Part shown: one piece after another, positions 26,364 through 64,000 of the stretch
How the letters are laid out: the number at the start of each line of letters is the position of its first letter
How positions within the stretch are numbered: the stretch's first letter is position 1
Virus record (IMG/VR): IMGVR_UViG_3300015263_000719
Location: 15,834 to 79,833 of that record
Reading direction: 5' to 3' (one strand)
Source of the DNA: a virus
DNA: 64,000 nucleotides
Notes under the pieces: generated by a model
What the model was told of the DNA's origin: nothing
Seen by the model: the letters and a program-made list of their open reading frames with translations, nothing else
Database searches by the model: none
Made by a program: the position numbers and the translations under genes

Positions 26364-29300
26364 TTAATTTCCAACTATCCACCAAGCTGTACCATCGCAA
26401 ACAATGGTTACTACATCATATTGAGTAGTCATGGTGTGACTTGTTGATGTACCCTCTAGGTTTTCTGTACCATTTGGATTAATGATTACATTACCTGTGG
26501 TTCCTAATTTTTTTATTTTATATTCTCTTCTAGCTACTTTTGCCGCAACAGGCAGGTTAATTGTAACCGCTGCACCTGCTGTATCATCATCTACTAGTAT
26601 TACATAATCATGTGCTGCTGTATAAGTGGTGGATGTTACAGTAGTAACAGGTTTATGTATTGCTCCAGTTTCTATATCTAATGCTCTAAAGTCATCAGCA
26701 GCAGTTATTACTGGCTGTATATATACTGCTCTAGTAATACCATTCGCCCCACCTGTTTGATTTATCTGTGGTCTAATGTATAGAGAAAAATACCTAGCTG
26801 TTCCAGAGGTAGGATTAAAACTTCTAACTTGATATATATCTCTTGCTTCTCCACTAGTAGGTGTTAATACAGCACCAGTAAATCCAAAGTGAGCATTAGT
26901 TCCTGTATCATTATCATAGTTGCTAAAAAATCCTAATCCTCTTCCTGCACTACTTCCAGATGATATAGCTGTACCTGAAAAATTCCAGATCACAGGAGCA
27001 TCATTACCTATAGTATTATCACCAAACCTAAGAGCATTATTAACTTGTAATTCTACATTAGTAGTAGCTCCACCAGAAGGTCCATTAATATATACAGCTC
27101 CTGTAGTATAATCTATTCTTACTCCTTCATTAGCTCCACCATTAAGTGAAGTTAATATTAAGTCATTACTAGTTCCTTCTAGTCTTATTCTTTGTCTATT
27201 AGCACTATTGGTAAAGTAGATATCAGAATGATTAGCTGCTCCACCAGAGTCCATATAGAATATAATATTGGAACCATTACCATCTACGTGTAGCTTACCT
27301 GATGGAGATGTAGTGCCTATACCTACATTGTAATTATAATCTAATGTCATAACTCTAGTCCAAGTAAGGTCAGATCCATAAGCTCCTAAGTGTAACTTAC
27401 CATATCCTAAACCACCATGTTCTTGTCCTTGAATAAATCCAGTGTTATTTCCATCTATTGTAAAGGCAATTGCTGCTGTACCAAATGTCGCAGCCACATT
27501 CTCATTATTTATAAGAACCATCTGGCTACTATTTGCTCCAGTTCCAGCACCTGCATCATCAGATATATGAAGATTAGTAGTAGGTGTAATTCCTATTCCT
27601 ACATTGCCATTATCAAATACTACATCCCCTTCATCAGAGTATATAGAATAATAAGTTCCAGTCACAGCAGTAAGAGTAGGGTTAAGATAAAGACCTATTA
27701 TATCTCCAGTAGCTGTGCCAGCTTGATTAACAGTAGGTCTTATGGATGCATAGTGAAAATTATGTGTGCTTGAAGCAGCAGTAATATCTCCACTTAAATC
27801 AAACAATTGAGATGTACCAGCAAATGTGTTAGTTCCATCTCTCTTAATGTTGAATCCCCCAGCATACCAAATATTAGATATTGAAAATCTTTGACTAATT
27901 CCTCTACCTGTACCTGTATGATGTGTATCTATAGCACCACTATGCCCAAAAAAGTAAGCCCCATTAAAGTTTAAATTACCATCATATGATATATTTATAT
28001 GATTATAAGTATTTCCGCTATCTGTAATAACTAATGGACTGCCATATGTGTCAGCGATAATCTTAACACCACCACCACTAGTTGTATAAGTAAATTGAGG
28101 CTCCTGAACTAAAGCTCCACCATTAGGAACTATTATCTGATCATCTACCCATGTAACTCCACCAGTAGATAATTCAGTCCACAAATCAGCAGCAGTACGT
28201 TCTCTAAAGATACCAGAGGCATCAAATACTGGATAGTAAGCACTAGTTCCAGAATTGAAAGTTCCTATACCATATACTCCATATTCTATTAAACCATTAT
28301 CATAGTTCTTGAACATTGATGTACCAGAACTATTTCTAGATTCTATTGCTACTGTAGCAGATGTAGTACCAGGTCCAAATACAGATAATCTTCTATTAGT
28401 TAAACCATTATTACCAAATCCAAACTCATGAGAGGTAGTTATATTCATTCCAGCAGTACTGGAAGAAGGATTATTAAAGTATCCTAATCTGAATATATCA
28501 GATAAAGAGTTATCTATACCAGCTATCCATGTACCAACTGTATTAACAGTCCATGCTGTATAAGCATCTCCTCCACCATTAGCTACATTAATTGATTGGA
28601 AAGCATTACCTGTTCCTATGTTCTGTAGATTATCTACGAGATTTCCAGATACTGTCCATGATCCAGTCATCTGATAAGCATTACCAGTAACAGTACCTGA
28701 TGACCAGTAAGCAGTATCATTAGCTGTTGTTATGCCTGTAACTCCTACTCCAACAGTTCCAGATGTACCAGATACTTCTAATTTATAATTAGGACTATTA
28801 GTTCCTATTCCTACATTACCGTCAGGTAGTATCCTAACTCTTTCTAAAGCTGTACCAGCACTACTTACAGTACTAAGCTGTAGACCCCCACCAGATACTC
28901 CATCTGTATATCCTCTAATTCTAGCGGTAGCAACTCCAGCGCTACTAAAAAGAAGTAATGACCCAGTGTTAGCAGCAGATGATGTATTATTCAACTTGAA
29001 CATTCCATTAGAGCTAAAGGAAGTACCAGTATCAGTCCTTTCAAGAGTGAGTAAATGAGTAGGACTACTAGTTCCTACCCCTACCTCTCCAGTAGAAAGA
29101 ACGGTGACTCTATCTAGTGAGTTAGTTCCTATATGTACATCTGATCCATCTCCTCTAAAATAACTATTAGTAGCAGCAGCTCCAGTACCAATCCAAAGAC
29201 CAGCAGTAGTGCCACTCCTATAATTAAGTTCTACTCTATTAAATGCAGTAGCTCTTTTAAGTCCTAATTCAAATTCATTCCTAAGGGTTAACTGTCTACC

Positions 29301-55089: not shown

Positions 55090-55380
55090 ATGAAGAAAAA
55101 AGAAAAACTAATTAATTTACCAGATGATTTTACTGGTGAGTGGACTTTATCAGATTTGGAAACATTTCTTAAAAGTGAACACTTAATAGGTAAGACCACT
55201 ACTCTTGCTATGACAGCAGAGCAAATTGAAAGATTAAACGTTGTAATGGATACAGTAAGACAAATGTATGGACAGATTAAAGATCCTTATGAAATAAGTT
55301 TTCCTTTTACTGAGTTTTCCTTTATAAAGTTTGAATTTCCTCTAAATACAAAACTAATAATTATTTTAAAACAAATATAA
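55090..55380 (+). CDS. Hypothetical protein (96 aa)
   Basis: First ORF after the rightward promoter; A-rich leader. Confidence 0.6.
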   Translation: MKKKEKLINLPDDFTGEWTLSDLETFLKSEHLIGKTTTLAMTAEQIERLNVVMDTVRQMYGQIKDPYEISFPFTEFSFIKFEFPLNTKLIIILKQI

Positions 55381-55817
55381 TGACACTGGAACAAGCTAAA
55401 GAACAACTAATGACCTGGAGAAAAGAAGGATTTGCTCGTCATTTACTAGCATTAAATCTTTGGAATGGACAAACATTCCTTCTGACAGGAGCAGAAAGAA
55501 TTGACAATAAAGACCTATGGACTGCTGTTGAACCTGATGGAAGCCTAAGCCTTCATCAAATCAGTCCTACTAAACCAGATTGGCTACCTTTGCATGAATT
55601 CCTTGATAAAGAAGAATACCTTCAAATAATGAAAGGTTTTGCTATGCAACCAATGCAGGTAGAAGTCAAAGATGGTTATGAGGCAAAAATAGAATCAAAC
55701 AAACTTATGATCAAAAAGATTGAGTGTCCTGGTTTTATGCCAAACAGCCAATCTGATAGTACAAGTGCAACAATATGTTTATTATGTGGAAAAGAAAAAT
55801 GGCAACATGAAAGATAA
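55380..55817 (+). CDS. Hypothetical protein with a C-terminal Cys/His motif
   Basis: CPGF...ICLLCG.EKWQH. Confidence 0.6.
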   Translation: MTLEQAKEQLMTWRKEGFARHLLALNLWNGQTFLLTGAERIDNKDLWTAVEPDGSLSLHQISPTKPDWLPLHEFLDKEEYLQIMKGFAMQPMQVEVKDGYEAKIESNKLMIKKIECPGFMPNSQSDSTSATICLLCGKEKWQHER

Positions 55818-56130
55818 AGAACCCATATCAGTAATTATAGCACCATACATCTGGTGCAGAATTGACAAGAAAGAAGATGAAGAAGCAAACCTAGTAACTA
55901 TAACAGAAGCTATGGATGTAGATAATCATGAAGTACAAATCAAAATAACTGAAATAGTATATGATACTAAACCTGAACCAGGACTACCAGATATAGTTGG
56001 TCCATCTATTAGTACAGACACATTCAGATTATTTAACAGAATGATAGTAAGAGATGATATAGTAGCTTTGGGAAAAGTAATAGGTCACAAATACAGAGTA
56101 ATTGAAAAAGTAAACTTAGAAAATTTATGA
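55807..56130 (+). CDS. Hypothetical protein
   Basis: Start moved to the ATG at 55807 (MKDKEP), overlapping the upstream stop. Confidence 0.55.
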   Translation: MKDKEPISVIIAPYIWCRIDKKEDEEANLVTITEAMDVDNHEVQIKITEIVYDTKPEPGLPDIVGPSISTDTFRLFNRMIVRDDIVALGKVIGHKYRVIEKVNLENL

Positions 56131-56423
56131 GTTATATGCCTGCAGGATGGGATAGAAAGATAAGATTCAGTATGGAAAACTATGATGAAGGTGAAGATAT
56201 ATTATTAAGACCTTCATACAATAGAATTGAGGAATATCAAAAAATTATTCTGGATACCTTTAAAAATGAATATAAAAAAGGACAGAAGATTGATCCAGTA
56301 GAACTAGCTTATAGTATAGCTCACTTTATTGATACAGAGTTGAGAGTTCTTGAAGCAAAGAATGGATTGGAAGCTGGTGATAGTATAATTGAAAGACATT
56401 ACAAAATATCAGAAGAATATTAA
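56127..56423 (+). CDS. Hypothetical protein (98 aa)
   Basis: ATGA coupling. Confidence 0.6.
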   Translation: MSYMPAGWDRKIRFSMENYDEGEDILLRPSYNRIEEYQKIILDTFKNEYKKGQKIDPVELAYSIAHFIDTELRVLEAKNGLEAGDSIIERHYKISEEY

Positions 56424-56434
56424 ATAGGAAAGAT

Positions 56435-56590
56435 ATGACAAACAAAGATAAAAGAGAATTAATATCTGAAGTTATTTTTTCTATATGTATGATCATTCCA
56501 ACCATAGCAGTTATGACCTTTTTAGGTATAATATGGTTATTTGATTACTGTATAACTAAAATAGCTGATTGGGTATTACCAATAAAATAA
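56435..56590 (+). CDS. Small membrane protein (51 aa), not in the ORF track
   Basis: MTNKDKRELISEVIFSICMIIPTIAVMTFLGIIWLFDYCITKIADWVLPIK; precedes a terminator. Confidence 0.55.
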   Translation: MTNKDKRELISEVIFSICMIIPTIAVMTFLGIIWLFDYCITKIADWVLPIK

Positions 56591-56619
56591 GAAAGATTTA
56601 TTATAATTAGTATAATATC

Positions 56620-56647
56620 AGCCTGCTAGTAATAGTGGGCTTTTTTT
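56620..56647 (+). terminator. Intrinsic terminator
   Basis: AGCCTGCTA-GTAA-TAGTGGGCT followed by a T run. Confidence 0.85.
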
Positions 56648-56652
56648 ATGTA

Positions 56653-56774
56653 CCCCTATGACTTATATGAGTATATAAAAGTCCCCCCCCCTATAGTAAT
56701 TTTGGTGAGTCAATTGTAAATGTGGGGGTATCCAATAAAACATCCCCCCCTCCATTTTTTAGGGGGAATACCCC
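56653..56774. other. G/C homopolymer island in non-coding DNA
   Basis: C4, C9, G5, C7, G5 and C4 tracts within 122 bp of an AT-rich genome. Confidence 0.8.
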
Positions 56775-56803
56775 GTATTACTTAATTTAAAAAATAAAAG
56801 ATC

Positions 56804-57202
56804 ATGGCAGTAATTGACATTCCTGTTTTTGAAAGAACAGAAATAGATGCAAGTCCATTATTGGACTTATTGGATGCTTATGGCATCGTGAGATTTACAA
56901 TCAATGAAACTGGTAAACAGTTTTCACTGTATGACAAAGATAACAAGAGAAGAGTTATCAATGTTTCACAAGGTGTACAGAAGCGTCTTACTCGTAAGGA
57001 AAGAAAGGAAAGGGCTGGTGAAATGGAAGTATCAGCAAATCATACCTTTGACAAGGCAAATGATACTGAAGGACAGTTTCCTTACAGTGGACCAATTGCA
57101 TATTATGCATTTCTACGTCAAGATGAGGAAGACATTTCATTGGATGAAATCAAGAATGGTGTTCCTTTTGAGGAAAACACAGGTAAAACTGTTGAGAAGT
57201 AA
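56804..57202 (+). CDS. Hypothetical early protein (132 aa)
   Basis: A-rich leader; first ORF after the G/C island. Confidence 0.7.
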   Translation: MAVIDIPVFERTEIDASPLLDLLDAYGIVRFTINETGKQFSLYDKDNKRRVINVSQGVQKRLTRKERKERAGEMEVSANHTFDKANDTEGQFPYSGPIAYYAFLRQDEEDISLDEIKNGVPFEENTGKTVEK

Positions 57203-57447
57203 GATATAATTGGGTGAGAAATCACCCAATTTATCAGCTCTAAAACCAGTAGTAAAACTAGTTTCTAGAGCTGTAAGATCTTTTTCATGAGGGATGATTA
57301 GATTGATGGTGTTTTTGTTCATAACTATTTGATTATTAGTTAAATATGTTGTGGGCATACACCATCATCTATCTTTTCAACCATAATCACCAAGTAATAC
57401 AAACAATCAAATATACTTATTATCTATTAACCATAAAATTCAAACTC

Positions 57448-57819
57448 ATGCTTAACTTACAACCTAAATATTTGTACAACATTGTTACAGCTATTAATTA
57501 TAAAACAAGATGGATGGTTGAAACATCAACTGCTTACAATTTCATTCACATTAAAGAAGTAGTAGCAATGCAAACTTGTACAGGAAAATTAATTAATGTA
57601 AGAACAGGAGATCTTATTTCATCTTGTGAACATGAATATTATCTAAGTAATAATGATATTAGAACAGCTCTAAAAGATAAAACACTCATAAGATCTATTG
57701 ATTCATGTTTCAGAGATAGAAATATGGGATTACTACTTGTTGAATTCATGAATGGTACAAAGCTAATTGCTTCAGATATTCAGGATTTAAAACGATTAAT
57801 TAATTTACCTACAAAATAA
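57448..57819 (+). CDS. Hypothetical protein
   Basis: Start moved to the ATG at 57448 (MLNLQP); the upstream part of the called ORF lies in hairpins. Confidence 0.55.
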   Translation: MLNLQPKYLYNIVTAINYKTRWMVETSTAYNFIHIKEVVAMQTCTGKLINVRTGDLISSCEHEYYLSNNDIRTALKDKTLIRSIDSCFRDRNMGLLLVEFMNGTKLIASDIQDLKRLINLPTK

Positions 57820-57914
57820 TTAAAGAAATAAAGAGCTGATATTTTCGTTCCACTGTTTAGGCATGTGGGAGGAGTCTAAATCAGCTCTTTTATTAATTAT
57901 AAACATCAAAAATC

Positions 57915-58076
57915 ATGGAAAAAAAGATTATATTAATTGCTTATAACAATACAAAAAAAGTTGCTGAGTTGACTTTAATTGCAACATTTGAGTCAATTGA
58001 AGATTTAAAGGAGTATTCAGCATATAAAGGTTTTTATAAAACCTACTCTGAGATTGAAGAGGAAGTAATTGAATAA
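57915..58076 (+). CDS. Small hypothetical protein (53 aa), not in the ORF track
   Basis: MEKKIILIAYNNTKKVAELTLIATFESIEDLKEYSAYKGFYKTYSEIEEEVIE, with an AAACATC leader like its neighbours. Confidence 0.6.
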   Translation: MEKKIILIAYNNTKKVAELTLIATFESIEDLKEYSAYKGFYKTYSEIEEEVIE

Positions 58077-58099
58077 AACATTTTATCTATTAATCATAA

Positions 58100-58500
58100 A
58101 AACATCATTTAATTATGAAAATACTAGTTATTACACTTCCATCACAAGACAATCAACCTGCTGATATATCTTGTACTAAAGAGGAAGCATACATTGAGCA
58201 GGTACAGCTTTGGAAAGCCAGAGCAAAAGAGTTGGAAGAACAGCTCGAAACTACTACAGAAAGATATAGACATAATATTGATCAGGTTAAACAAGAGAAT
58301 AAAGTTTTAAAAAGTGCTTTTTCTACTCAAAAAATTATTGTTGATAGATTGAGTAAATTGGTTGAAGATAAGAATACTGAGATTAAAGTGCTTAATAAAA
58401 CTCTTGAAAGATTGGAAAAAGAATGTAACAGATTATTTAATCAATGGAAAACAGGGTATTAATTTTATATTCATCTATAAACATCATTTAATTATGAAAA
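58100..58500 (+). repeat. 22-bp direct repeat spanning two start codons
   Basis: AAACATCATTTAATTATGAAAA at 58100-58121 and 58479-58500. Confidence 0.85.
58115..58462 (+). CDS. Coiled-coil protein (115 aa)
   Basis: Heptad repeats. Confidence 0.65.
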   Translation: MKILVITLPSQDNQPADISCTKEEAYIEQVQLWKARAKELEEQLETTTERYRHNIDQVKQENKVLKSAFSTQKIIVDRLSKLVEDKNTEIKVLNKTLERLEKECNRLFNQWKTGY

Positions 58501-58880
58501 AGTATTTAATTATTTCTATTTGTGCACTTATTAGCCTTTCTTCATGCACAAGCAAATCAGTTCAGAAGAAAGAGCAATTGAATAAGCAATCACAGACTGT
58601 TACAGTATGTGATGAAGTTGCTGTATTAAAAGCTGAACTTGCTGAATTGCAAACACAGTATGATAATCTTATCGAAAGAACATCTATGGATAATAATATC
58701 ATTGATGTTACATATGGTGATTATGAGGATATCTTTGTAAACTATGAGTTTACAGGGGGCTTTTTTCTCCCAAAAGAAGAAGAGACAAGGATAATGAAGG
58801 AACTTAAAGCAATTCATGCATTTGTTGCTGAATTGCAAAGTGATTTTCTTTATGATGGAACAAAAGAGAGTGGCTATTAA
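58494..58880 (+). CDS. Lipoprotein
   Basis: Start moved to the ATG at 58494: MKKYLIISICALISLSS-C lipobox. Confidence 0.7.
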   Translation: MKKYLIISICALISLSSCTSKSVQKKEQLNKQSQTVTVCDEVAVLKAELAELQTQYDNLIERTSMDNNIIDVTYGDYEDIFVNYEFTGGFFLPKEEETRIMKELKAIHAFVAELQSDFLYDGTKESGY

Positions 58881-58895
58881 GCCACTCTTTCTTTT
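58867..58895 (+). terminator. Intrinsic terminator overlapping the lipoprotein stop codon
   Basis: AGAGTGGCT-ATTA-AGCCACTCT-TTCTTTT. Confidence 0.75.
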
Positions 58896-58931
58896 ATTTA
58901 ATTTAATTTAATTGTTAAAAACTATAAAATC

Positions 58932-59342
58932 ATGACAGAATCACAATTCTTACAAGATATGTTAAATTATTATTGTGCTGATCCATTAGCACGTAGATGT
59001 GTTAGTATAAGCGGTGGATGTAAATATTCACCTGTTAGTATAAATAAACTAACATCGGAAGGTTGTGCAATTGGTAGACACTTGTCACCTGATGTACAGA
59101 TAAAGTTTGATAACCAAATTTGTGCAGGTATTGAAGATATTTTAGATAAGAAATATCTTAAAGAGTTAATGCCAAAATGGATGCAAAATATGAATGAAGA
59201 TTTCTTATCAGATTCTCAGGCATTACATGATATGAATATCTTTTGGGATGATAAAGGATTGAGCAATGAAGGAATAAGTAGAGTTGAGGAAATAATAAAG
59301 AAATTTGATCTGAAAGATATTAAAATACCTTCACCTAATTAA
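58932..59342 (+). CDS. Conserved phage hypothetical protein (C.Y...GCAIG...Q.LHD)
   Basis: Cys/His motif pattern. Confidence 0.65.
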   Translation: MTESQFLQDMLNYYCADPLARRCVSISGGCKYSPVSINKLTSEGCAIGRHLSPDVQIKFDNQICAGIEDILDKKYLKELMPKWMQNMNEDFLSDSQALHDMNIFWDDKGLSNEGISRVEEIIKKFDLKDIKIPSPN

Positions 59343-59490
59343 ATCTAATTTATTATGCAATTATTTAGTCTTATTCTAGTAATTATTGCTGTTATCATTT
59401 CCATTGCTTTCAATGTATATGATGACAATAAGACAAAATAAGAAGCATTAACTATGAACAATTTACTTTAATCTAAAAATACAACGCTTT

Positions 59491-59715
59491 ATGAAAAATA
59501 ATCTTAGTAAAGAGGATATTATTGTGGCACAAAACACAATCCTTAAACAGTACATTAATGGTACTCTTACTATTAAAACCGAAAGAGATGGATGGTGCTT
59601 GGTTGAGAATCTCTCAACTAAACAACTAATGTCTGAATTAGCCAGGATTCAGAATGATGATCCATATTTCTGGCTGCTTAGAAAATTGTTAACCAAAAAA
59701 TTAAATAAAGTATGA
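59491..59715 (+). CDS. Hypothetical protein (74 aa)
   Basis: Coupled to the next ORF. Confidence 0.55.
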   Translation: MKNNLSKEDIIVAQNTILKQYINGTLTIKTERDGWCLVENLSTKQLMSELARIQNDDPYFWLLRKLLTKKLNKV

Positions 59716-60197
59716 TGAAATCAGCATTTATTTTAACGGCATTTATTTCTCTGTTTACAATCAGCTATATGTATTACAAACATCTTGAAAGAACAGAACC
59801 AGAAACTATTGAATCATCTACTCCTGAATGGGTAGATGAACAGATGGATACCTGGAACAACATGTATTATGTCACTATTGACTGGAAGGATGACAATCAC
59901 ATCAAAATTAATGATAGTATTATCATTAGTATTGATGATTTTGAGGTCATTGAAACCTGGTTTGAAATTATGGAACCAACAGCTCCATTTACAATTACTG
60001 TTGAAATTGAAGGAGAATATTCTTTTACTTATGGTATTAAAGTTCAGGGTGGTGATATCCTCAAGTTAACCTCATGGTATATTGATGATAATCTCTATTC
60101 AAAAGAACAAGGGTATGACTTCTATACAGCTATTGGACATAAAACCTGGGAGTATCTACATCTAAAGAAAGCTTTAAATGTAGTTGCAAGAGAATAA
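59712..60197 (+). CDS. Membrane-anchored acidic protein
   Basis: N-terminal TM helix. Confidence 0.6.
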   Translation: MMKSAFILTAFISLFTISYMYYKHLERTEPETIESSTPEWVDEQMDTWNNMYYVTIDWKDDNHIKINDSIIISIDDFEVIETWFEIMEPTAPFTITVEIEGEYSFTYGIKVQGGDILKLTSWYIDDNLYSKEQGYDFYTAIGHKTWEYLHLKKALNVVARE

Positions 60198-60310
60198 AGT
60201 TTATATGGTTAAATGGTGCAAGGCAGATTGAGTAGAACTCTCCGTTTTACTCTTTCTGCCATTTTTAATTTGATTTAATTAATTAATAAATAAATAAAAA
60301 CGCTTAAATT

Positions 60311-60922
60311 ATGAAATTAATTGCATATGATATGCTAGATGAGATTCCTTATCCAGTAACACAAAGTATTGCATATGAACCAACAAGAAGCATTATTAAT
60401 CATTTTAATGATGCTATACTGACAATATTTGAAGAGAGTGATAAAGAAAATCTGTATATTTACTGTACAGGTAGTTCTGGTTCATTCTTATCAGCTATTT
60501 TATCTGTTGCTTTTTATCAAAGATTTGATAATAAAGGAAAAGATTATAAAATAACTATTAATCACATAAAGAAGGATGGTGAAAAAGCTCATAAAACAAG
60601 TTTAAATGTTACTACTTATGAGGCTGCAGAAGCATTTAATGTTATTGTGGATGATTTTATAGCTTCAGGTAGGACTATAGAGAATATCATGAATGGTATT
60701 GACAGGCACTTTACATCATCATCATCAGGTCCTATGATAGATTTACTTGCTATTACTGGTTTTGTCAGTTATGGTAGTATAGATATATTTAATGATAGAA
60801 TCTATTCTTGTTTAGCAAGAAATTATGGAGGAATTTCCAATGACTGTGAATTAATAGAATATGACGTCTGGCAAAAAAGAAAAGGGCTTTGTCCCTCAAA
60901 AAGAAAAATGCAAGTACTGTGA
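60311..60922 (+). CDS. Type I phosphoribosyltransferase-family protein
   Basis: PRPP-binding loop VIVDDFIASGRTI; TGSSG motif. Confidence 0.8.
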   Translation: MKLIAYDMLDEIPYPVTQSIAYEPTRSIINHFNDAILTIFEESDKENLYIYCTGSSGSFLSAILSVAFYQRFDNKGKDYKITINHIKKDGEKAHKTSLNVTTYEAAEAFNVIVDDFIASGRTIENIMNGIDRHFTSSSSGPMIDLLAITGFVSYGSIDIFNDRIYSCLARNYGGISNDCELIEYDVWQKRKGLCPSKRKMQVL

Positions 60923-61037
60923 GCAAGATAGACATTATCCTTGTAGATGCTTAGAGCATTTACAGGGATGTGTCTATGCTACAGAATCTGTAAAGAAGTC
61001 TATTAATAGACGATTTAATTTTACAAAGTTTCTTTAA
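60861..61037 (+). CDS. Possible small Cys-rich protein (58 aa), not in the ORF track
   Basis: MTSGKKEKGFVPQKEKCKYCEQDRHYPCRCLEHLQGCVY...; overlaps the PRTase end by 62 nt and contains a long hairpin. Confidence 0.3.
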   Translation: MTSGKKEKGFVPQKEKCKYCEQDRHYPCRCLEHLQGCVYATESVKKSINRRFNFTKFL

Positions 61038-61049
61038 TAGTATTAAAAC

Positions 61050-61080
61050 TTGATAGTTTATGAAAAATTACTTAACTTTG
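61050..61080 (+). promoter_or_regulatory. Bacteroidota-type promoter driving the ncRNA locus
   Basis: TTG-N20-TAACTTTG, followed by about 1 kb with no ORF of 60 aa or more. Confidence 0.8.
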
Positions 61081-61113
61081 TACTTCAAAACCCCAACTAA
61101 TTTAAACAAAAAC

Positions 61114-61282
61114 GTTGAATTAAATGATCAGATGGATGAAAGGTGCAGTAGGAACCACCATGTTGTATCTCCACAAGATACTCAGCCCTTCAGTTCATGA
61201 CAAAAGATTAATACTTATTATGTGGATAATAATATTAATCAAATGGTGTAAGTAATCCATATAATAAGCTGTTTAATTCAAT
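61114..61282 (+). ncRNA. Structured RNA domain A (multi-branch)
   Basis: Closing helix GTTGAATTAAAT/GTTTAATTCAAT. Internal stems: ATGGATGAAAGG/CCCTTCAGTTCAT, GTATCT/AGATAC, GATTAATACTTATTAT/ATAATAATATTAATC. Confidence 0.6.
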
Positions 61283-61290
61283 AAAGAAAT

Positions 61291-61587
61291 CATGTTAAAC
61301 TGGGAAACTCCAGTAAAGAAGAGTGATAGTATCAGTTTAAAGCTGTTGTTTTGGCAGGTACTTTTTAATCGCATAATTAGATGAGTAAATATTTCTACTG
61401 GGAGGTGGGATATTATACATTGTAATGATTTTTAAATACACTCGGTTTTAAGTTGAAAGTCTGTTTGTTGTGAGATAGAGTCTTGTTTGATTCTTCGCAC
61501 GGTCAGCAGGAGTTTTGTTGATTATCTGGCAAAAGAGTCAGGTATCAGCATATTATCACTTAGGTCTTTATTTTCACAGTTTACATG
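61291..61587 (+). ncRNA. Structured RNA domain B (about 300 nt, ornate multi-branch)
   Basis: Nested long-range helices CATGTTAAACTG/CAGTTTACATG, TAAAGA/TCTTTA and AGTGATAGTAT/ATATTATCACT enclose at least five hairpins rich in G-U pairs; ends 3 nt before a tRNA-like 5' end. Confidence 0.65.
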
Positions 61588-61590
61588 GTC

Positions 61591-61844
61591 GCTAGGATAG
61601 CTCAATTGGTAGAGCACCTGGTCTGCTTTTTTCATCAGAAATGTAAGTTAATTATTTATTGTTGTGAGAACATCTGAATCCATAAGGGGTTGTGGGCAAT
61701 GTTCACAAATAGATAAAGATTAACTTAGTTTTTGGTGTTAGATAAGTTCAAGCTGAACATACTATGTGAAAACTAGTATTGGGAAGCTAGATTCTTATCG
61801 TTGGTTAGACCAGGAGGTTGCAGGTTCAAGTCTTGCTCCTAGCA
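61591..61844 (+). tRNA. tRNA-like gene 1, with a 188-nt structured insert replacing the anticodon loop; identity undetermined
   Basis: Acceptor GCTAGGA/TCCTAGC + A73; D arm GCTC-AATTGGTA-GAGC; stem CCTGG/CCAGG; variable loop AGGTT; T arm GCAGG-TTCAAGT-CTTGC; no encoded CCA. Confidence 0.8.
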
Positions 61845-61949
61845 CTTATTTTAAAAATACTCCTCACACTTATTAATATATCTTGGTTAATTGGACATTG
61901 GCTGTTCCAAAAACCGTTTTAAGTAGATTAGATTAATTTGAGAGAGGAA

Positions 61950-62085
61950 GAGGTGATAGCATTATGGTTCAATGCATTCTTTTGATTGAAGTGGTGTTAG
62001 TTTTCATATACCTTTTAATAGCGATTCTCTATTCTTATGACTTCATGATAGAGAAAGATTTGCAGGTTCAAATCCTGCCACCTCA
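61950..62085 (+). tRNA. tRNA-like gene 2, with a 69-nt branched insert in the anticodon arm; identity uncertain (TT-GAT follows the stem)
   Basis: Acceptor GAGGTG/CACCTC (6 bp); D arm GCAT-TATGGTTCA-ATGC; stem TTCTT/GAGAA; T arm GCAGG-TTCAAAT-CCTGC; followed by a T run. Confidence 0.7.
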
Positions 62086-62109
62086 TTTTTTTCATTAAAT
62101 AAAAATTCC

Positions 62110-62721
62110 ATGAGACAAATTATAATAATGATTTGTGTACTATTTATATTAATGTTTACAAGCATTAGAGATACTGCACATGTCACTTACACATACACAG
62201 CACCAGTTGTTGAGTATTGTGAAAACAAGTGGTCAAAGCTGGACACTTTGACTGCAATTCCTATTAATGACACTGAAGATTTTATTGAGTATTATGATGT
62301 AATATTCAGATATGTTGCTGAAAAGACAGGACTATCTGAAGCATTTATATATGCTTATTTTGTTATTGAAACAGCAGACAGACATGGTAAAAGAGCCAAT
62401 TCTGAGTTGTGGAGATATCACAATAATCCAGGTGGTATTAAATGGAAATCATTTTTATCAGATAAGATTGTTAAATATGAAGATGATTGCTTTGATGAGA
62501 ATGGTAATGAAATAGACTGTAAATTTGCATCATTTAATACTATAAAAGAAGGTATAGATGCATGGTTACTGGTCTTTAATGCAAATAGATATGATAGATG
62601 TAAAAACTTGCCTCTCAAGGAAACATGTAAGTGTTTCCGTGATAGGAAATATCATTCATCACCTAGATATTTGCATCGGTATTTACTTGCTGAAGAGTAT
62701 AACTCTTTGGTAATTAGATAA
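62110..62721 (+). CDS. GH73 glucosaminidase/muramidase with an N-terminal signal anchor (candidate endolysin)
   Basis: A...IET...HNNPGGIK...FASF.TIKEGI...RY pattern; hydrophobic N-terminus. Confidence 0.75.
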   Translation: MRQIIIMICVLFILMFTSIRDTAHVTYTYTAPVVEYCENKWSKLDTLTAIPINDTEDFIEYYDVIFRYVAEKTGLSEAFIYAYFVIETADRHGKRANSELWRYHNNPGGIKWKSFLSDKIVKYEDDCFDENGNEIDCKFASFNTIKEGIDAWLLVFNANRYDRCKNLPLKETCKCFRDRKYHSSPRYLHRYLLAEEYNSLVIR

Positions 62722-62738
62722 TTACTAAATTTCCACAT

Positions 62739-63002
62739 ATGGAAACAAATATAATCTCCCATAGACCAAAAGTGGCTATGAGAGACAGAGTTATTTGTAA
62801 AATTGAAAACATAGATGAGATTACAAGTCAGGCTAATTATAATGGTAATGTAATACCGTTATTTACTACATTTGGTGGAGCAAGACTGTATCCAGAAGGA
62901 CATAGAGATTATAAAGATGATCTTGAAGATGTTTATCTGGAATATATTGTTGTATCATTTCCTGATACACCAATTTGGAAGACAATTAGATTGTCACTTT
63001 AA
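62739..63002 (+). CDS. Hypothetical protein (87 aa)
   Basis: ORF in the operon. Confidence 0.55.
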   Translation: METNIISHRPKVAMRDRVICKIENIDEITSQANYNGNVIPLFTTFGGARLYPEGHRDYKDDLEDVYLEYIVVSFPDTPIWKTIRLSL

Positions 63003-63031
63003 TAATTTTTTAAAACTTAATATATTATTAT

Positions 63032-63301
63032 ATGTTGGTTTTTCATGATACAGATGGTCATATTCTTATTACAGTAGAACAGCAAAATTTAGATAAATGT
63101 GTAGCTGTTATGGAAAAGTATGATCAAGGTACATTAAAATGGAATGGTAAACTGATTGGTAACATGACAGTTAGCCATATATATAATTGTAAAAATTATA
63201 TCAGAACACGTTGGAAAACTACATCCTTATCACAAGTTTGGCTTGATATCTTTGATGCAGAGATAAAAGCTAGAATGAGAAAGATTGTAAAGAGAAGATA
63301 A
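63032..63301 (+). CDS. Hypothetical phage protein (W...I..M...HI.NC motif)
   Basis: ORF in the operon. Confidence 0.6.
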   Translation: MLVFHDTDGHILITVEQQNLDKCVAVMEKYDQGTLKWNGKLIGNMTVSHIYNCKNYIRTRWKTTSLSQVWLDIFDAEIKARMRKIVKRR

Positions 63302-63324
63302 GGCGTTTTTATACATATATTGTC

Positions 63325-63352
63325 TAAGGGAGTTACTACGGTAACTCCTTTA
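63325..63352 (+). terminator. Stable cUACGg-capped hairpin directly 5' of tRNA-like gene 3 (terminator or processing signal)
   Basis: TAAGGGAGTTAC-TACG-GTAACTCCTTTA. Confidence 0.55.
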
Positions 63353-63366
63353 ATTGGTCTCATAGC

Positions 63367-63762
63367 TCAACTGGATAGAGCATGGGTTTTCTTGAGAATC
63401 AACTGATTATGGTGTTCAAGACGGTGACAATTAGAGCATAATAATATGCATTTATCAAGCTCTTGTTGTATTTTGGCTTTACTTTTGAGTCTAAGCTTAG
63501 ACCACTCAGCATCTTTTTCTTCTGGATTAAGATGATGAAAGTCAAATATACAATAGTTATCATTAGTACCTTCAAGGTTACAGCGATCACATTTGTTACC
63601 TAAATAAATAATAGCATCTATTTTACGTTGAATCCAACGTTTTATACATCTATTATTAAAACATTGTTTACAGTAGCTCATCACTCCTTGTGAATGAGTG
63701 GATGATTTATAGAAATCATCAGTGCTTTTAGTGATTTTGCAATCTATACATTTCTTTTCCAT
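63367..63762 (-). CDS. HNH homing endonuclease with Zn-finger motifs, inside the tRNA gene on the opposite strand
   Basis: CIDC..CKQC, CDRC, FDFHHLNP and KCILLCSNCHRLEH; the stop codon falls in the tRNA D arm. Confidence 0.88.
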   Translation of the reverse strand: MEKKCIDCKITKSTDDFYKSSTHSQGVMSYCKQCFNNRCIKRWIQRKIDAIIYLGNKCDRCNLEGTNDNYCIFDFHHLNPEEKDAEWSKLRLKSKAKIQQELDKCILLCSNCHRLEHHNQLILKKTHALSS

Positions 63763-63766
63763 CTTG

Positions 63767-63797
63767 TAAAGATAAGAAGAATTGTTTAGAAATCCTA
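63767..63797 (-). promoter_or_regulatory. Probable promoter for the HNH gene, inside the tRNA insert
   Basis: Minus strand TAG-N20-TATCTTTA, the same -7 variant as at 20255, 4 nt before the ATG. Confidence 0.5.
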
Positions 63798-64000
63798 ATT
63801 CTAATCACACTATTTTCAAGAAACCCAAGGTTGTAGGTTCGAGTCCTACTGGGATCACAAGAGTCACTTGAGATTAACTAGTATAGTGACAGTCCTTGGA
63901 AGAGTTAAGCTTCATGAAGGAACCTGTAGACCTAGGCTGGTCTACCAGACTGAGTAGGAAAAAATTAGATCCGAGAGGGCAGACACTAAATAGCTGTGAA

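What the first reader, a model, noticed from the sequence alone, without database searches (positions are those of the whole stretch)
61622..61809. Cargo of tRNA-like gene 1: a rod of about 110 nt plus a second stem-loop on a three-way junction
Seen: a long rod CATCAGAAA..TAAGTTAAT..TATTTATT..GTGAGAACAT..CCATAA / TTGTGG..ATGTTCACAAATAGATA..ATTAACTTA..TTTTTGGTG. A second arm follows: ATAAG..AGCT..ATACTA-TGTGAAAAC-TAGTAT..AGCT..CTTAT. Position 33 would be C or G for any splice choice, so a decoding tRNA is unlikely. Inference: the insert itself is the functional part, such as a dsRNA-like decoy or protein-binding aptamer.
Basis: partly seen in the sequence, partly recalled or inferred. Interest (0 to 1): 0.7.

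Follow-up and report, generated by a model that had tools for sequence, protein, structure and literature searches.

The report
Phage tRNA-shaped gene with rod insert
A marine crAss-like phage has a gene with a normal tRNA body whose anticodon loop is replaced by a 180-base folded RNA, a long rod plus a hairpin; it most likely no longer reads codons, but with no relatives and no RNA data its job is unknown.

Summary
Window 61591-61844 (+) has acceptor, D and T arms. Its anticodon stem runs on as an 11-bp helix into a three-way junction. That junction carries a 43-bp rod (61633-61737) and a 21-bp GAAA-capped hairpin (61741-61799). The fold beats all 200 shuffles (z -4.3 for the insert, -6.4 for the gene). 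It is strand-specific: -64 kcal/mol on + against -43 on -.

ARAGORN finds a shifted reading, tRNA-Asn(GUU), with a 179-nt insert after U33. That product would be odd: a 6-bp stem, a C32:G38 pair, and A73 with G1:C72 where all tRNA-Asn seen here have G73 with U1:A72.

Nothing matches group I, BHB, Y RNA or tmRNA. The 80 kb held encode no ligase, Ro60, RNase III or splicing endonuclease. I found no homologue, so covariation could not be tested.

Best reading (about 0.42): a non-decoding tRNA-scaffolded structured RNA. Main rival (about 0.28): an unconventional, protein-cut intron. The neighbouring tRNA-Arg(UCU) is cleanly split by an HNH element.

Earlier notes of this scan describe similar tRNA-with-insert genes in other phages. 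They served only as leads.

The parts
61591..61616 (+). 5' part of the tRNA body: acceptor 5' strand (61591-61597), U8 A9, D arm (61600-61615, loop AAUUGGUA with G18 G19), A26
   Evidence: Sequence. ARAGORN intron mode at default threshold. Partial Rfam tRNA match of 20.5 bits to model positions 1-54. The D arm is identical to that of bacterial tRNA-Trp/Lys/Thr genes.
61617..61627 (+). 5' strand of the closing helix: anticodon stem CCUGG, then UCUGCU. It pairs with 61803-61814.
   Evidence: MFE and pair list; mean pair probability 0.90.
61633..61737 (+). Rod: 43-bp imperfect hairpin with 7 G-U pairs and a GGGG loop at 61686-61689
   Evidence: mean pair probability 0.87.
61741..61799 (+). Second arm: 21-bp hairpin capped by a GAAA tetraloop (61768-61771)
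   Evidence: mean pair probability 0.95.
61803..61814 (+). 3' strand of the closing helix (GG-U-UAGACCAGG, U61805 bulged)
61815..61844 (+). 3' part of the tRNA body: variable loop AGGUU, T arm GCAGG-UUCAAGU-CUUGC (61820-61836), acceptor 3' strand (61837-61843), discriminator A61844. No CCA is encoded.
   Evidence: Sequence; ARAGORN.
61625..61803 (+). The 179-nt 'intron' as ARAGORN delimits it: after U33, starting with G and ending with G
60923..61590 (+). ORF-free, strongly folded 668-nt leader ending directly at the tRNA-like 5' end. Probably the same transcript (inferred).
   Evidence: Fold z -6.28. No ORF over 58 aa. No Rfam family.
61950..62085 (+). tRNA-like gene 2 with a 62-69-nt insert at the same topological site (context)
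   Evidence: Rfam tRNA 32.1 bits; ARAGORN; folds.
63356..63858 (+). Gene 3: tRNA-Arg(UCU) split between U36 and A37 by a 428-nt insert (63393-63820) that holds an antisense HNH ORF, 63367-63762 on the - strand (context)

Best explanation
Gene 1 most likely makes a stable, non-decoding, tRNA-shaped RNA of about 255 nt.

Shown by sequence and folding: the acceptor, D and T arms are intact, so the tRNA elbow can form. The anticodon arm has become a continuous 9-11-bp helix. It ends in a three-way junction that carries a 43-bp rod and a 21-bp GAAA-capped hairpin. No single-stranded anticodon loop is left.

Inferred: it is transcribed with the 668-nt structured leader and with tRNA-like gene 2 as an early non-coding transcript. 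The tRNA-like body lets host RNase P, 3' trimming enzymes and the CCA-adding enzyme define and protect its ends. The insert is the working part. It would act by binding or titrating a host or phage protein that recognises tRNA bodies or long RNA helices, for example a tRNA-targeting defence nuclease. The partner is unknown.
For: 1. The fold is real, strand-specific and far from chance.
2. The stretch that should be the anticodon stem-loop is seven perfect Watson-Crick pairs (CCUGGUC/GACCAGG), followed by U-A and G-U. Compared with bacterial tRNA-Trp genes that share this D arm and T arm (GAGC-A-CCGGU-CUCCAAA-ACCGG), gene 1 has one extra U:A pair in the stem and G in place of A38. Both changes lengthen the helix.
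3. No splice gives a normal tRNA. The 5-bp register gives C33 or G33. The 6-bp register gives C32:G38 and an acceptor of the wrong type for Asn. Comparison set: U33 in 152 of 153, C32:G38 in 2 of 153, purine 37 in 153 of 153, G73 and U1:A72 in 3 of 3 tRNA-Asn.
4. Gene 2, 100 nt downstream, has an insert at the same site. It cannot yield a purine at position 37 under any splice and has only a 6-bp acceptor stem.
5. No group I, group II, small-ribozyme or BHB signature was found (Rfam at E<=10). The 80 kb held show no RtcB, Rnl-type ligase, RNase III or splicing-endonuclease gene.
6. Precedent for stable tRNA-linked RNAs of unknown role in phages: T4 RNAC and RNAD (PMC3014915), and tRNA-mimicking YrlA RNAs of bacteria and phages (PMC4201824).
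Against: - No homologue was found, so there is no covariation, and no expression data.
- ARAGORN does find a U33-GUU-A37 loop. Asn codons are heavily used (AAU 53 per 1000), so a phage tRNA-Asn would make sense.
- Gene 3 in the same cluster is a canonical tRNA-Arg(UCU) that is cleanly interrupted. All three tRNA-like genes of the contig are interrupted and none is intact. One shared splicing route would explain that more economically.
- 6-bp anticodon stems work in tRNA-Sec and tRNA-Pyl (own knowledge).
- The contig is only about 72% complete, so a ligase or nuclease gene may lie in the missing part.
Confidence: 0.42

Rival explanations
1. Unconventional, non-ribozyme tRNA intron. The insert is cut out by a host or phage endonuclease that recognises the extended anticodon helix and junction. 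The halves are then rejoined by an RNA ligase to give a working tRNA, read by ARAGORN as Asn(GUU). The rod and hairpin serve as the recognition or folding signal, or the excised piece has a role of its own.
For: - ARAGORN's default threshold finds exactly three tRNAs in the contig, all interrupted in the anticodon loop and none intact.
- Removing 61625-61803 gives a 7-nt loop CU-GUU-AG with U33 and A37.
- AAU/AAC and AGA are heavily used codons.
- Gene 3 becomes a canonical tRNA-Arg(UCU) on excision, and relatives keep that isoacceptor intact. Its two junctions lie 2 bp apart in a 16-bp helix, leaving a 2-nt 3' overhang as RNase III products do.
- Unclassified, 'enigmatic' tRNA introns are reported in Lak megaphages of Bacteroidota (PMC6784885).
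- Bacteroides thetaiotaomicron, a member of the likely host phylum, has RtcB and RNase III (controls).
Against: - The product would have a 6-bp stem, C32:G38 and a non-Asn acceptor.
- With the geometry seen in gene 3 (2-nt 3' overhang), no pair of cuts in gene 1 gives a 7-nt loop. ARAGORN's junctions give the opposite, 5'-overhang stagger (my count on the pair list).
- There is no 3-nt bulge-helix-bulge motif.
- Gene 2 cannot be rescued by any splice.
- No such pathway is known in bacteria.
- No ligase or nuclease gene was found in the 80 kb held.
Confidence: 0.28
2. Decaying pseudo-tRNA. A former phage tRNA gene was hit by an insertion, as gene 3 was by the HNH element, and is no longer used. 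The fold is a leftover property of the inserted DNA.
For: - The HNH family of gene 3 is linked to tRNA clusters elsewhere: L221 holds it free between two tRNA-Ala copies.
- Relatives have only intact tRNAs.
- The early-gene block is hypervariable, with no protein homologues in three relatives.
- Gene 2 looks degraded.
Against: - There are 7 G-U pairs and no A.C mismatch in the rod, and a 21 kcal/mol strand difference. A decaying DNA palindrome should show both kinds equally, which gives p about 0.008.
- The insert occurs only once in the genome and has no target-site duplication.
- The tRNA elbow elements are all intact.
- The sequence is identical in contigs of other runs, though these may be the same strain.
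Confidence: 0.13
3. Self-splicing intron: a very reduced group I-like or an unknown ribozyme.
For: In ARAGORN's reading the 5' exon ends in U and the insert ends in G. Gene 3 does the same (U36 | ... G | A37), which is the group I rule and the site used by known tRNA-Arg/Ile group I introns (PMC3984707).
Against: - No Rfam group I hit even at E<=10 on a 1-kb search.
- The rod and hairpin take 164 of 179 nt, which leaves no room for a P3-P9 core.
- I found no internal guide complementary to GGUCU with a U.G at the splice site (read from the sequence).
- In gene 3 about 370 of 428 nt are antisense coding sequence.
Confidence: 0.05
4. Y-RNA-type RNA: a tRNA-like module plus a helix that docks Ro60 (Rsr), wired in normal tRNA order.
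For: - The general shape fits: a tRNA-like body plus a long stem.
- GGUCUG/UUAGACC in the closing helix loosely resembles the vertebrate Ro site GGUCCGA/UUGACC (own knowledge).
- A member of the likely host phylum, B. thetaiotaomicron, has a TROVE protein (control).
Against: - No YrlA or Y_RNA Rfam match to gene 1 at E<=10.
- The bacterial motif GNCGAAN0-1G (PMC4201824) is absent. Gene 1 contains no CGAA, and the only window match to GNCGAANG is at 26741.
- No TROVE gene in the 80 kb held.
Confidence: 0.04

Closest known systems
'Enigmatic' tRNA introns of Lak megaphages (Devoto et al. 2019, PMC6784885)
   Same: Phages of Bacteroidota. Inserts in the anticodon region of tRNA genes that bacterial tRNA finders miss. 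No Rfam class for the inserts.
   Different: The Lak inserts were defined by alignment of tRNA alleles with and without the insert, and some look tRNA-shaped. Here no allele without the insert is known, the insert is a rod plus a hairpin, and the exon junction does not give a normal tRNA.
Group I introns in bacterial and phage tRNA anticodon loops (review PMC3984707)
   Same: The site (anticodon loop), U before and G at the end of the insert in one reading, and a homing-endonuclease gene in the neighbouring gene 3.
   Different: No group I core by Rfam. Only 179 nt, almost all taken up by two hairpins. The two ends of the insert pair with each other and extend the anticodon stem, in place of a P1/P10 arrangement.
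YrlA / bacterial and phage Y RNAs (Chen et al. 2014, PMC4201824; Rfam RF02553)
   Same: A non-coding RNA that joins a tRNA-like module to a long helix. Found in phages. Recognised by tRNA-processing enzymes.
   Different: YrlA is circularly permuted relative to a tRNA and carries the GNCGAA motif for Rsr. Gene 1 is in normal tRNA order, lacks the motif, gives no Rfam hit, and no Ro60 gene was seen.
Phage T4 RNAC and RNAD (species 1 and 2 RNAs) in the tRNA cluster (PMC3014915; details from own knowledge)
   Same: Small stable phage RNAs encoded among tRNA genes, processed with them, role unknown.
   Different: There is no sequence relation that I could test. The T4 RNAs are about 120-140 nt and do not have a complete cloverleaf with a 180-nt insert.
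Engineered 'tRNA scaffold' for recombinant RNA (Ponchon and Dardel 2007; own knowledge)
   Same: The same design: the anticodon stem of a tRNA is extended and closes a foreign structured RNA, while the tRNA body gives folding, processing and nuclease resistance.
   Different: That is a laboratory construct. A natural counterpart with a rod cargo is not described in the papers I could search.
RNase III-excised intervening sequences of bacterial 23S rRNA (own knowledge)
   Same: An optional insert that forms a long helix extending a native stem.
   Different: The rRNA pieces are not rejoined. A tRNA cut in its anticodon loop would need ligation. The junction geometry of gene 1 does not fit RNase III products.

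Membership tests
Decoding tRNA interrupted by an intron (any mechanism) | Cloverleaf body with an elbow (G18 G19, T-loop UUCRANU) | tested here: met
   Sequence; ARAGORN default threshold; D and T arms identical to bacterial tRNA-Trp/Lys/Thr genes.
Decoding tRNA interrupted by an intron (any mechanism) | Excision restores a 5-bp stem with a 7-nt loop, U33, purine 37 and no Watson-Crick C:G at 32:38 | tested here: not met
   The 5-bp register gives C33 or G33 for all splice choices. The 6-bp register gives U33 and A37 but C32:G38. Background: U33 in 152 of 153, C32:G38 in 2 of 153.
Decoding tRNA interrupted by an intron (any mechanism) | The acceptor end fits the isotype of the restored anticodon (bacterial tRNA-Asn: G73, usually U1:A72) | tested here: not met
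   Gene 1 has G1:C72 and A73. That G73 is an AsnRS identity element is own knowledge. The sample is small.
Decoding tRNA interrupted by an intron (any mechanism) | The spliced RNA exists | not testable with these tools
   No RNA run was listed for this phage; only DNA contigs were laid.
Group I intron | Conserved catalytic core (P3-P9, G-binding site) detectable by Rfam RF00028 | tested here: not met
   No hit at E<=10.
Group I intron | 5' exon ends in U and the intron ends in G | tested here: met
   U61624 | G61625 ... G61803 | G61804 in ARAGORN's reading. The junction can slide by one base.
Archaeal/eukaryal protein-spliced intron | Bulge-helix-bulge motif at the junctions, and a splicing endonuclease | tested here: not met
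   The closing helix has a single 1-nt bulge. No PF01974 match in the contig.
RNase III-type hairpin intron (proposed in earlier notes of this scan, not an established family) | Two cuts across a helix, 2 bp apart with 3' overhangs, that leave a 7-nt anticodon loop | tested here: not met
   My enumeration on the pair list finds no such cut pair giving 7 nt in gene 1. The geometry is met in gene 3.
Y RNA / YrlA | Rfam RF02553/RF00019 match, GNCGAAN0-1G motif, and an associated Ro60 (TROVE) gene | tested here: not met
   No Rfam hit on gene 1. Motif absent (sequence). No PF05731 match in the 80 kb held. The genome is incomplete.
tmRNA | tRNA-Ala-like acceptor (G3:U70), a tag reading frame, detection by ARAGORN | tested here: not met
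   ARAGORN found no tmRNA. Gene 1 has U3:A70 and a complete D arm.
Lak-type 'enigmatic' phage tRNA intron | The same tRNA occurs with and without the insert in related genomes | tested here: inconclusive
   No relative carries this tRNA at all.
MITE / palindromic mobile DNA | Several copies, a target-site duplication, a DNA-symmetric palindrome | tested here: not met
   Single copy in the contig. No duplication at the ends. 7 G-U against 0 A.C in the rod, and a 21 kcal/mol strand bias.

The most novel reading that the evidence does not exclude
All three inserts of this cluster (the rod-plus-hairpin in gene 1, the small branched insert in gene 2, the HNH-bearing insert in gene 3) are removed at the RNA level by a protein-based cut-and-rejoin pathway of the phage or its Bacteroidota host. 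That would be a tRNA splicing system in bacteria that depends on neither group I ribozymes nor the archaeal BHB endonuclease. The extended anticodon helix would be the common recognition element.
Probability: 0.15. Interest if true: 0.85.

Novelty: new variant of a known kind. Interest (0 to 1): 0.45.

Why it matters
If gene 1 is a stable tRNA-scaffolded RNA, it would be a natural version of a design that RNA engineers use: a tRNA body that carries and protects a foreign fold. It would point to a phage RNA that works by occupying a host protein, perhaps one of the tRNA-targeting defence nucleases that phage tRNAs are known to counter (PMC10264068, PMC11555353).

If it is spliced, it would add to the unexplained phage tRNA introns first noted in Lak phages. 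It would also imply a bacterial tRNA cut-and-ligate route that has not been described.

Either way, standard tRNA finders miss all three tRNA-type genes of this phage, so tRNA counts for such phages are too low.

The value is limited by two gaps: no relatives and no RNA data.

Tried and rejected
Searches for homologues of the insert or of the tRNA, all empty:
- blastn (distant mode) of 61400-62200 against 50,697 GenBank phages.
- IMG/VR exact scan with the 5' exon 18-mer. It found only an unrelated tRNA in a 455-kb phage and a chance hit.
- IMG/VR scan with a 20-mer of the hairpin apex.
- Metagenome scan with a 24-mer of the T arm plus acceptor.
- Covariance model R1 (198 positions, 75 pairs) over 1.38 Mb. 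This covered 80 loci of TerL relatives, three whole relatives, L002 and the window. It matched only itself.
- Look-alike search in this scan's notes.

Other steps that led nowhere:
- Single-protein search for related loci with three neighbouring or marker genes found nothing.
- The neighbouring gene's only protein match was itself.
I could therefore not read the 111-kb version of this genome or the closest relatives (TerL 68-72%, Logan contigs).
- Metagenome records could not be searched by handle.
- No RNA holder was listed for this phage. Laid contigs of runs X2-X4 only showed the same sequence at low depth, and joints that come from other organisms' tRNAs.
- A sigma-70 promoter scan and a Bacteroidota-type promoter pattern were not above chance.

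Readings considered and dropped:
- tmRNA.
- Ochre suppressor UUA, because TAA ends 47 of 60 ORFs.
- tRNA-Ser(GCU), because there is no long variable arm.
- GOLLD, ROOL or other large Rfam RNAs for the 1.2-kb non-coding block.
- Small self-cleaving ribozymes (no Rfam hit).
- Antisense target within the phage: no complementarity beyond 13 nt, apart from one 18-nt same-strand match with a mismatch at E 0.04.
- A small ORF in the insert.

Full report
**What the DNA is.** The window is bases 15834-79833 of a 79.8-kb IMG/VR virus contig estimated at 72% complete. The major head protein, portal and large terminase match phage families. The head protein is about 23% identical to those of crAss-like phages of Bacteroidota. 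The standard code gives long ORFs. A run from marine sediment holds 98% of the sampled words. Three other runs hold low-depth pieces that are mostly letter-identical.

**The observation.**
- Positions 61591-61844 on the + strand have a 7-bp acceptor stem, a D arm with G18 G19, a 5-nt variable loop, a T arm with loop UUCAAGU, and discriminator A.
- Between the two strands of the anticodon stem lie 188 nt.
- Folding extends the anticodon stem to 11 bp (61617-61627 / 61803-61814, U61805 bulged) and ends it in a three-way junction.
- The junction carries a 43-bp rod (61633-61737, GGGG loop) and a 21-bp hairpin (61741-61799, GAAA loop).
- The insert folds at -51.4 kcal/mol against -35.6 +/- 3.7 for shuffles (z -4.3). 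The whole gene gives z -6.4. No shuffle of 200 does as well.
- It ranks 18th of 1992 windows of the contig's + strand despite its low G+C.
- The + strand folds 21 kcal/mol better than the - strand. The rod has 7 G-U pairs and no A.C mismatch. A DNA palindrome that decays by mutation should show both kinds equally.

**Can it be a decoding tRNA?**
- Standard ARAGORN finds no tRNA in the window. Rfam finds only gene 2.
- In intron mode at its default threshold, ARAGORN finds exactly three tRNA genes in the contig. All are interrupted in the anticodon loop and none is intact.
- For gene 1 it shifts the anticodon stem by one pair and reads loop CU-GUU-AG after removal of 61625-61803.
- The shifted product is unusual. 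Its stem is effectively 6 bp, and C32 can pair with G38, which gives seven perfect pairs around a 5-nt loop.
- The three tRNA-Asn in that set have U1:A72 and G73. Gene 1 has G1:C72 and A73.
- Other readings fail as well:
  - UUA would suppress TAA, which ends 47 of 60 ORFs.
  - GCU would need the long arm of tRNA-Ser.
- The body is of a generic Trp/Lys/Thr type. A scan of bacterial genomes for its D arm and T arm returned mostly tRNA-Trp with the anticodon arm CCGGU-CUCCAAA-ACCGG. Relative to these, gene 1 has one extra U:A pair and G at position 38. Both changes lengthen the helix.
- In favour of a tRNA: Asn codons are very common in this phage (AAU 53 per 1000).

**Known classes tested.**
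- Rfam at E<=10 gives no group I or II intron, small ribozyme, Y RNA, tRNA-like RNA or large ornate RNA on 60850-62300 or 63200-64000.
- The rod and hairpin use 164 of 179 nt, so a group I core has no room. The U | ... G | junction rule is met in ARAGORN's reading.
- There is no bulge-helix-bulge motif.
- The bacterial Ro60 motif GNCGAA (PMC4201824) is absent.
- Six-frame searches of the contig find no TROVE, RtcB, RNA ligase (two families), splicing endonuclease or RNase III. Pfam and PHROG scans of 41 small ORFs show only dUTPase, homing endonucleases, a DNA-binding protein and similar.
- About 31 kb of the genome was not available to me.

**The neighbours.**
- *Gene 3 (63356-63858).* It becomes a canonical tRNA-Arg(UCU) when 63393-63820 is removed.
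  - AGA is 86% of the phage's Arg codons.
  - Two relatives carry the same isoacceptor uninterrupted.
  - Its insert holds an antisense HNH gene. A homologue of that gene lies free between two tRNA-Ala genes in a 320-kb phage.
  - Its junctions lie in a 16-bp helix, 2 bp apart, and would leave a 2-nt 3' overhang. This is the geometry of RNase III products.
  - I tested the same geometry on gene 1: no pair of such cuts leaves a 7-nt loop. ARAGORN's junctions have the opposite stagger.
- *Gene 2 (61950-62085).* It has an insert at the same site, a 6-bp acceptor stem, and a pyrimidine at position 37 under any splice.
- *Upstream leader (60923-61590).* These 668 nt have no ORF and fold with z -6.3.

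**Relatives.**
- The TerL family has many members at 43-72% identity.
- I fetched 80 IMG/VR loci, three whole relatives and 31 metagenome loci.
- They hold only ordinary tRNAs (Arg, Leu, Met, Gln, Lys).
- None matches the covariance model of the insert.
- The proteins of the early block 55090-63301 have no homologues in the three whole relatives.

**Verdict.**
- The structure is real.
- The most likely reading (about 0.42) is a non-decoding, tRNA-scaffolded structured RNA. The tRNA body would give processing and stability, and the insert would do the work, probably by binding a protein.
- The main rival (about 0.28) is an unconventional protein-cut intron. The cleanly split tRNA-Arg next door and the fact that all three tRNA-type genes are interrupted keep it alive.
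- A decaying pseudo-tRNA (0.13), a ribozyme (0.05) and a Y-RNA-type RNA (0.04) are less likely.
- Similar tRNA-with-insert genes in other phages are recorded in earlier notes of this scan. I used them only as leads for the RNase III and Y RNA tests, both of which gene 1 failed.

Noticed in passing
window 63356-63858: tRNA-Arg(UCU) split between U36 and A37 by 428 nt that hold an antisense HNH ORF. The two junctions lie in a 16-bp helix (63383-63399 / 63812-63827, U63390 bulged), staggered by 2 bp with a 2-nt 3' overhang, as in RNase III products. AGA is 86% of Arg codons, and relatives keep this tRNA intact.
   Followed up: partly
window 61950-62085: tRNA-like gene 2. The 'TGAT duplication' can be read as a symmetric UGAU/UGAU internal loop (tandem G.A) that continues the anticodon helix into UGAAGU/ACUUCA and a small three-way junction. 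The cloverleaf fold (-32.6 kcal/mol) is less stable than an alternative two-hairpin fold (-36.9). The acceptor stem has only 6 bp.
   Followed up: partly
window 60923-61590: A 668-nt ORF-free leader directly upstream of gene 1 folds far better than shuffles (z -6.3). It has no Rfam family. With genes 1 and 2 it forms a 1.2-kb non-coding, highly structured block.
   Followed up: partly
L221:1423-1917: In a 320-kb IMG/VR phage, a 38%-identical homologue of the gene 3 HNH protein lies free between two tRNA-Ala(UGC) genes inside a tRNA cluster. This suggests an endonuclease family that targets tRNA genes.
   Followed up: no
L002:1649-1722: A 455-kb phage has an uninterrupted tRNA that shares 18 nt with gene 1's 5' half. 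Its anticodon loop is UCUGGAG, so it has C33. It was the only non-U33 among 153 tRNAs compared.
   Followed up: no
proteins P0004, P0013, P0015, P0020, P0022 and others: Many terminase relatives of this phage clade are 1100-1190 aa long and carry homing-endonuclease (intein-type) domains (PF14528, PF05203, PF05204). The window's own TerL has none.
   Followed up: no
window about 57050-57400: The most stable 188-nt fold of the contig's + strand (-67 kcal/mol) lies here, in the early-gene block near a short antisense ORF.
   Followed up: no
L057:2781-2889; L070:780-926 / L072:781-927: ARAGORN in intron mode also calls interrupted tRNA-like genes (27-nt and 65-nt inserts) in distant crAss-like relatives (TerL about 27% identical). 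They are not homologous to gene 1.
   Followed up: no
window 58000-64000: Low-depth contigs of three runs from other studies (one labelled gut metagenome) carry pieces of this phage, most of them letter-identical, including the insert (61583-61814 in X4). The phage is therefore not confined to the sediment sample.
   Followed up: partly
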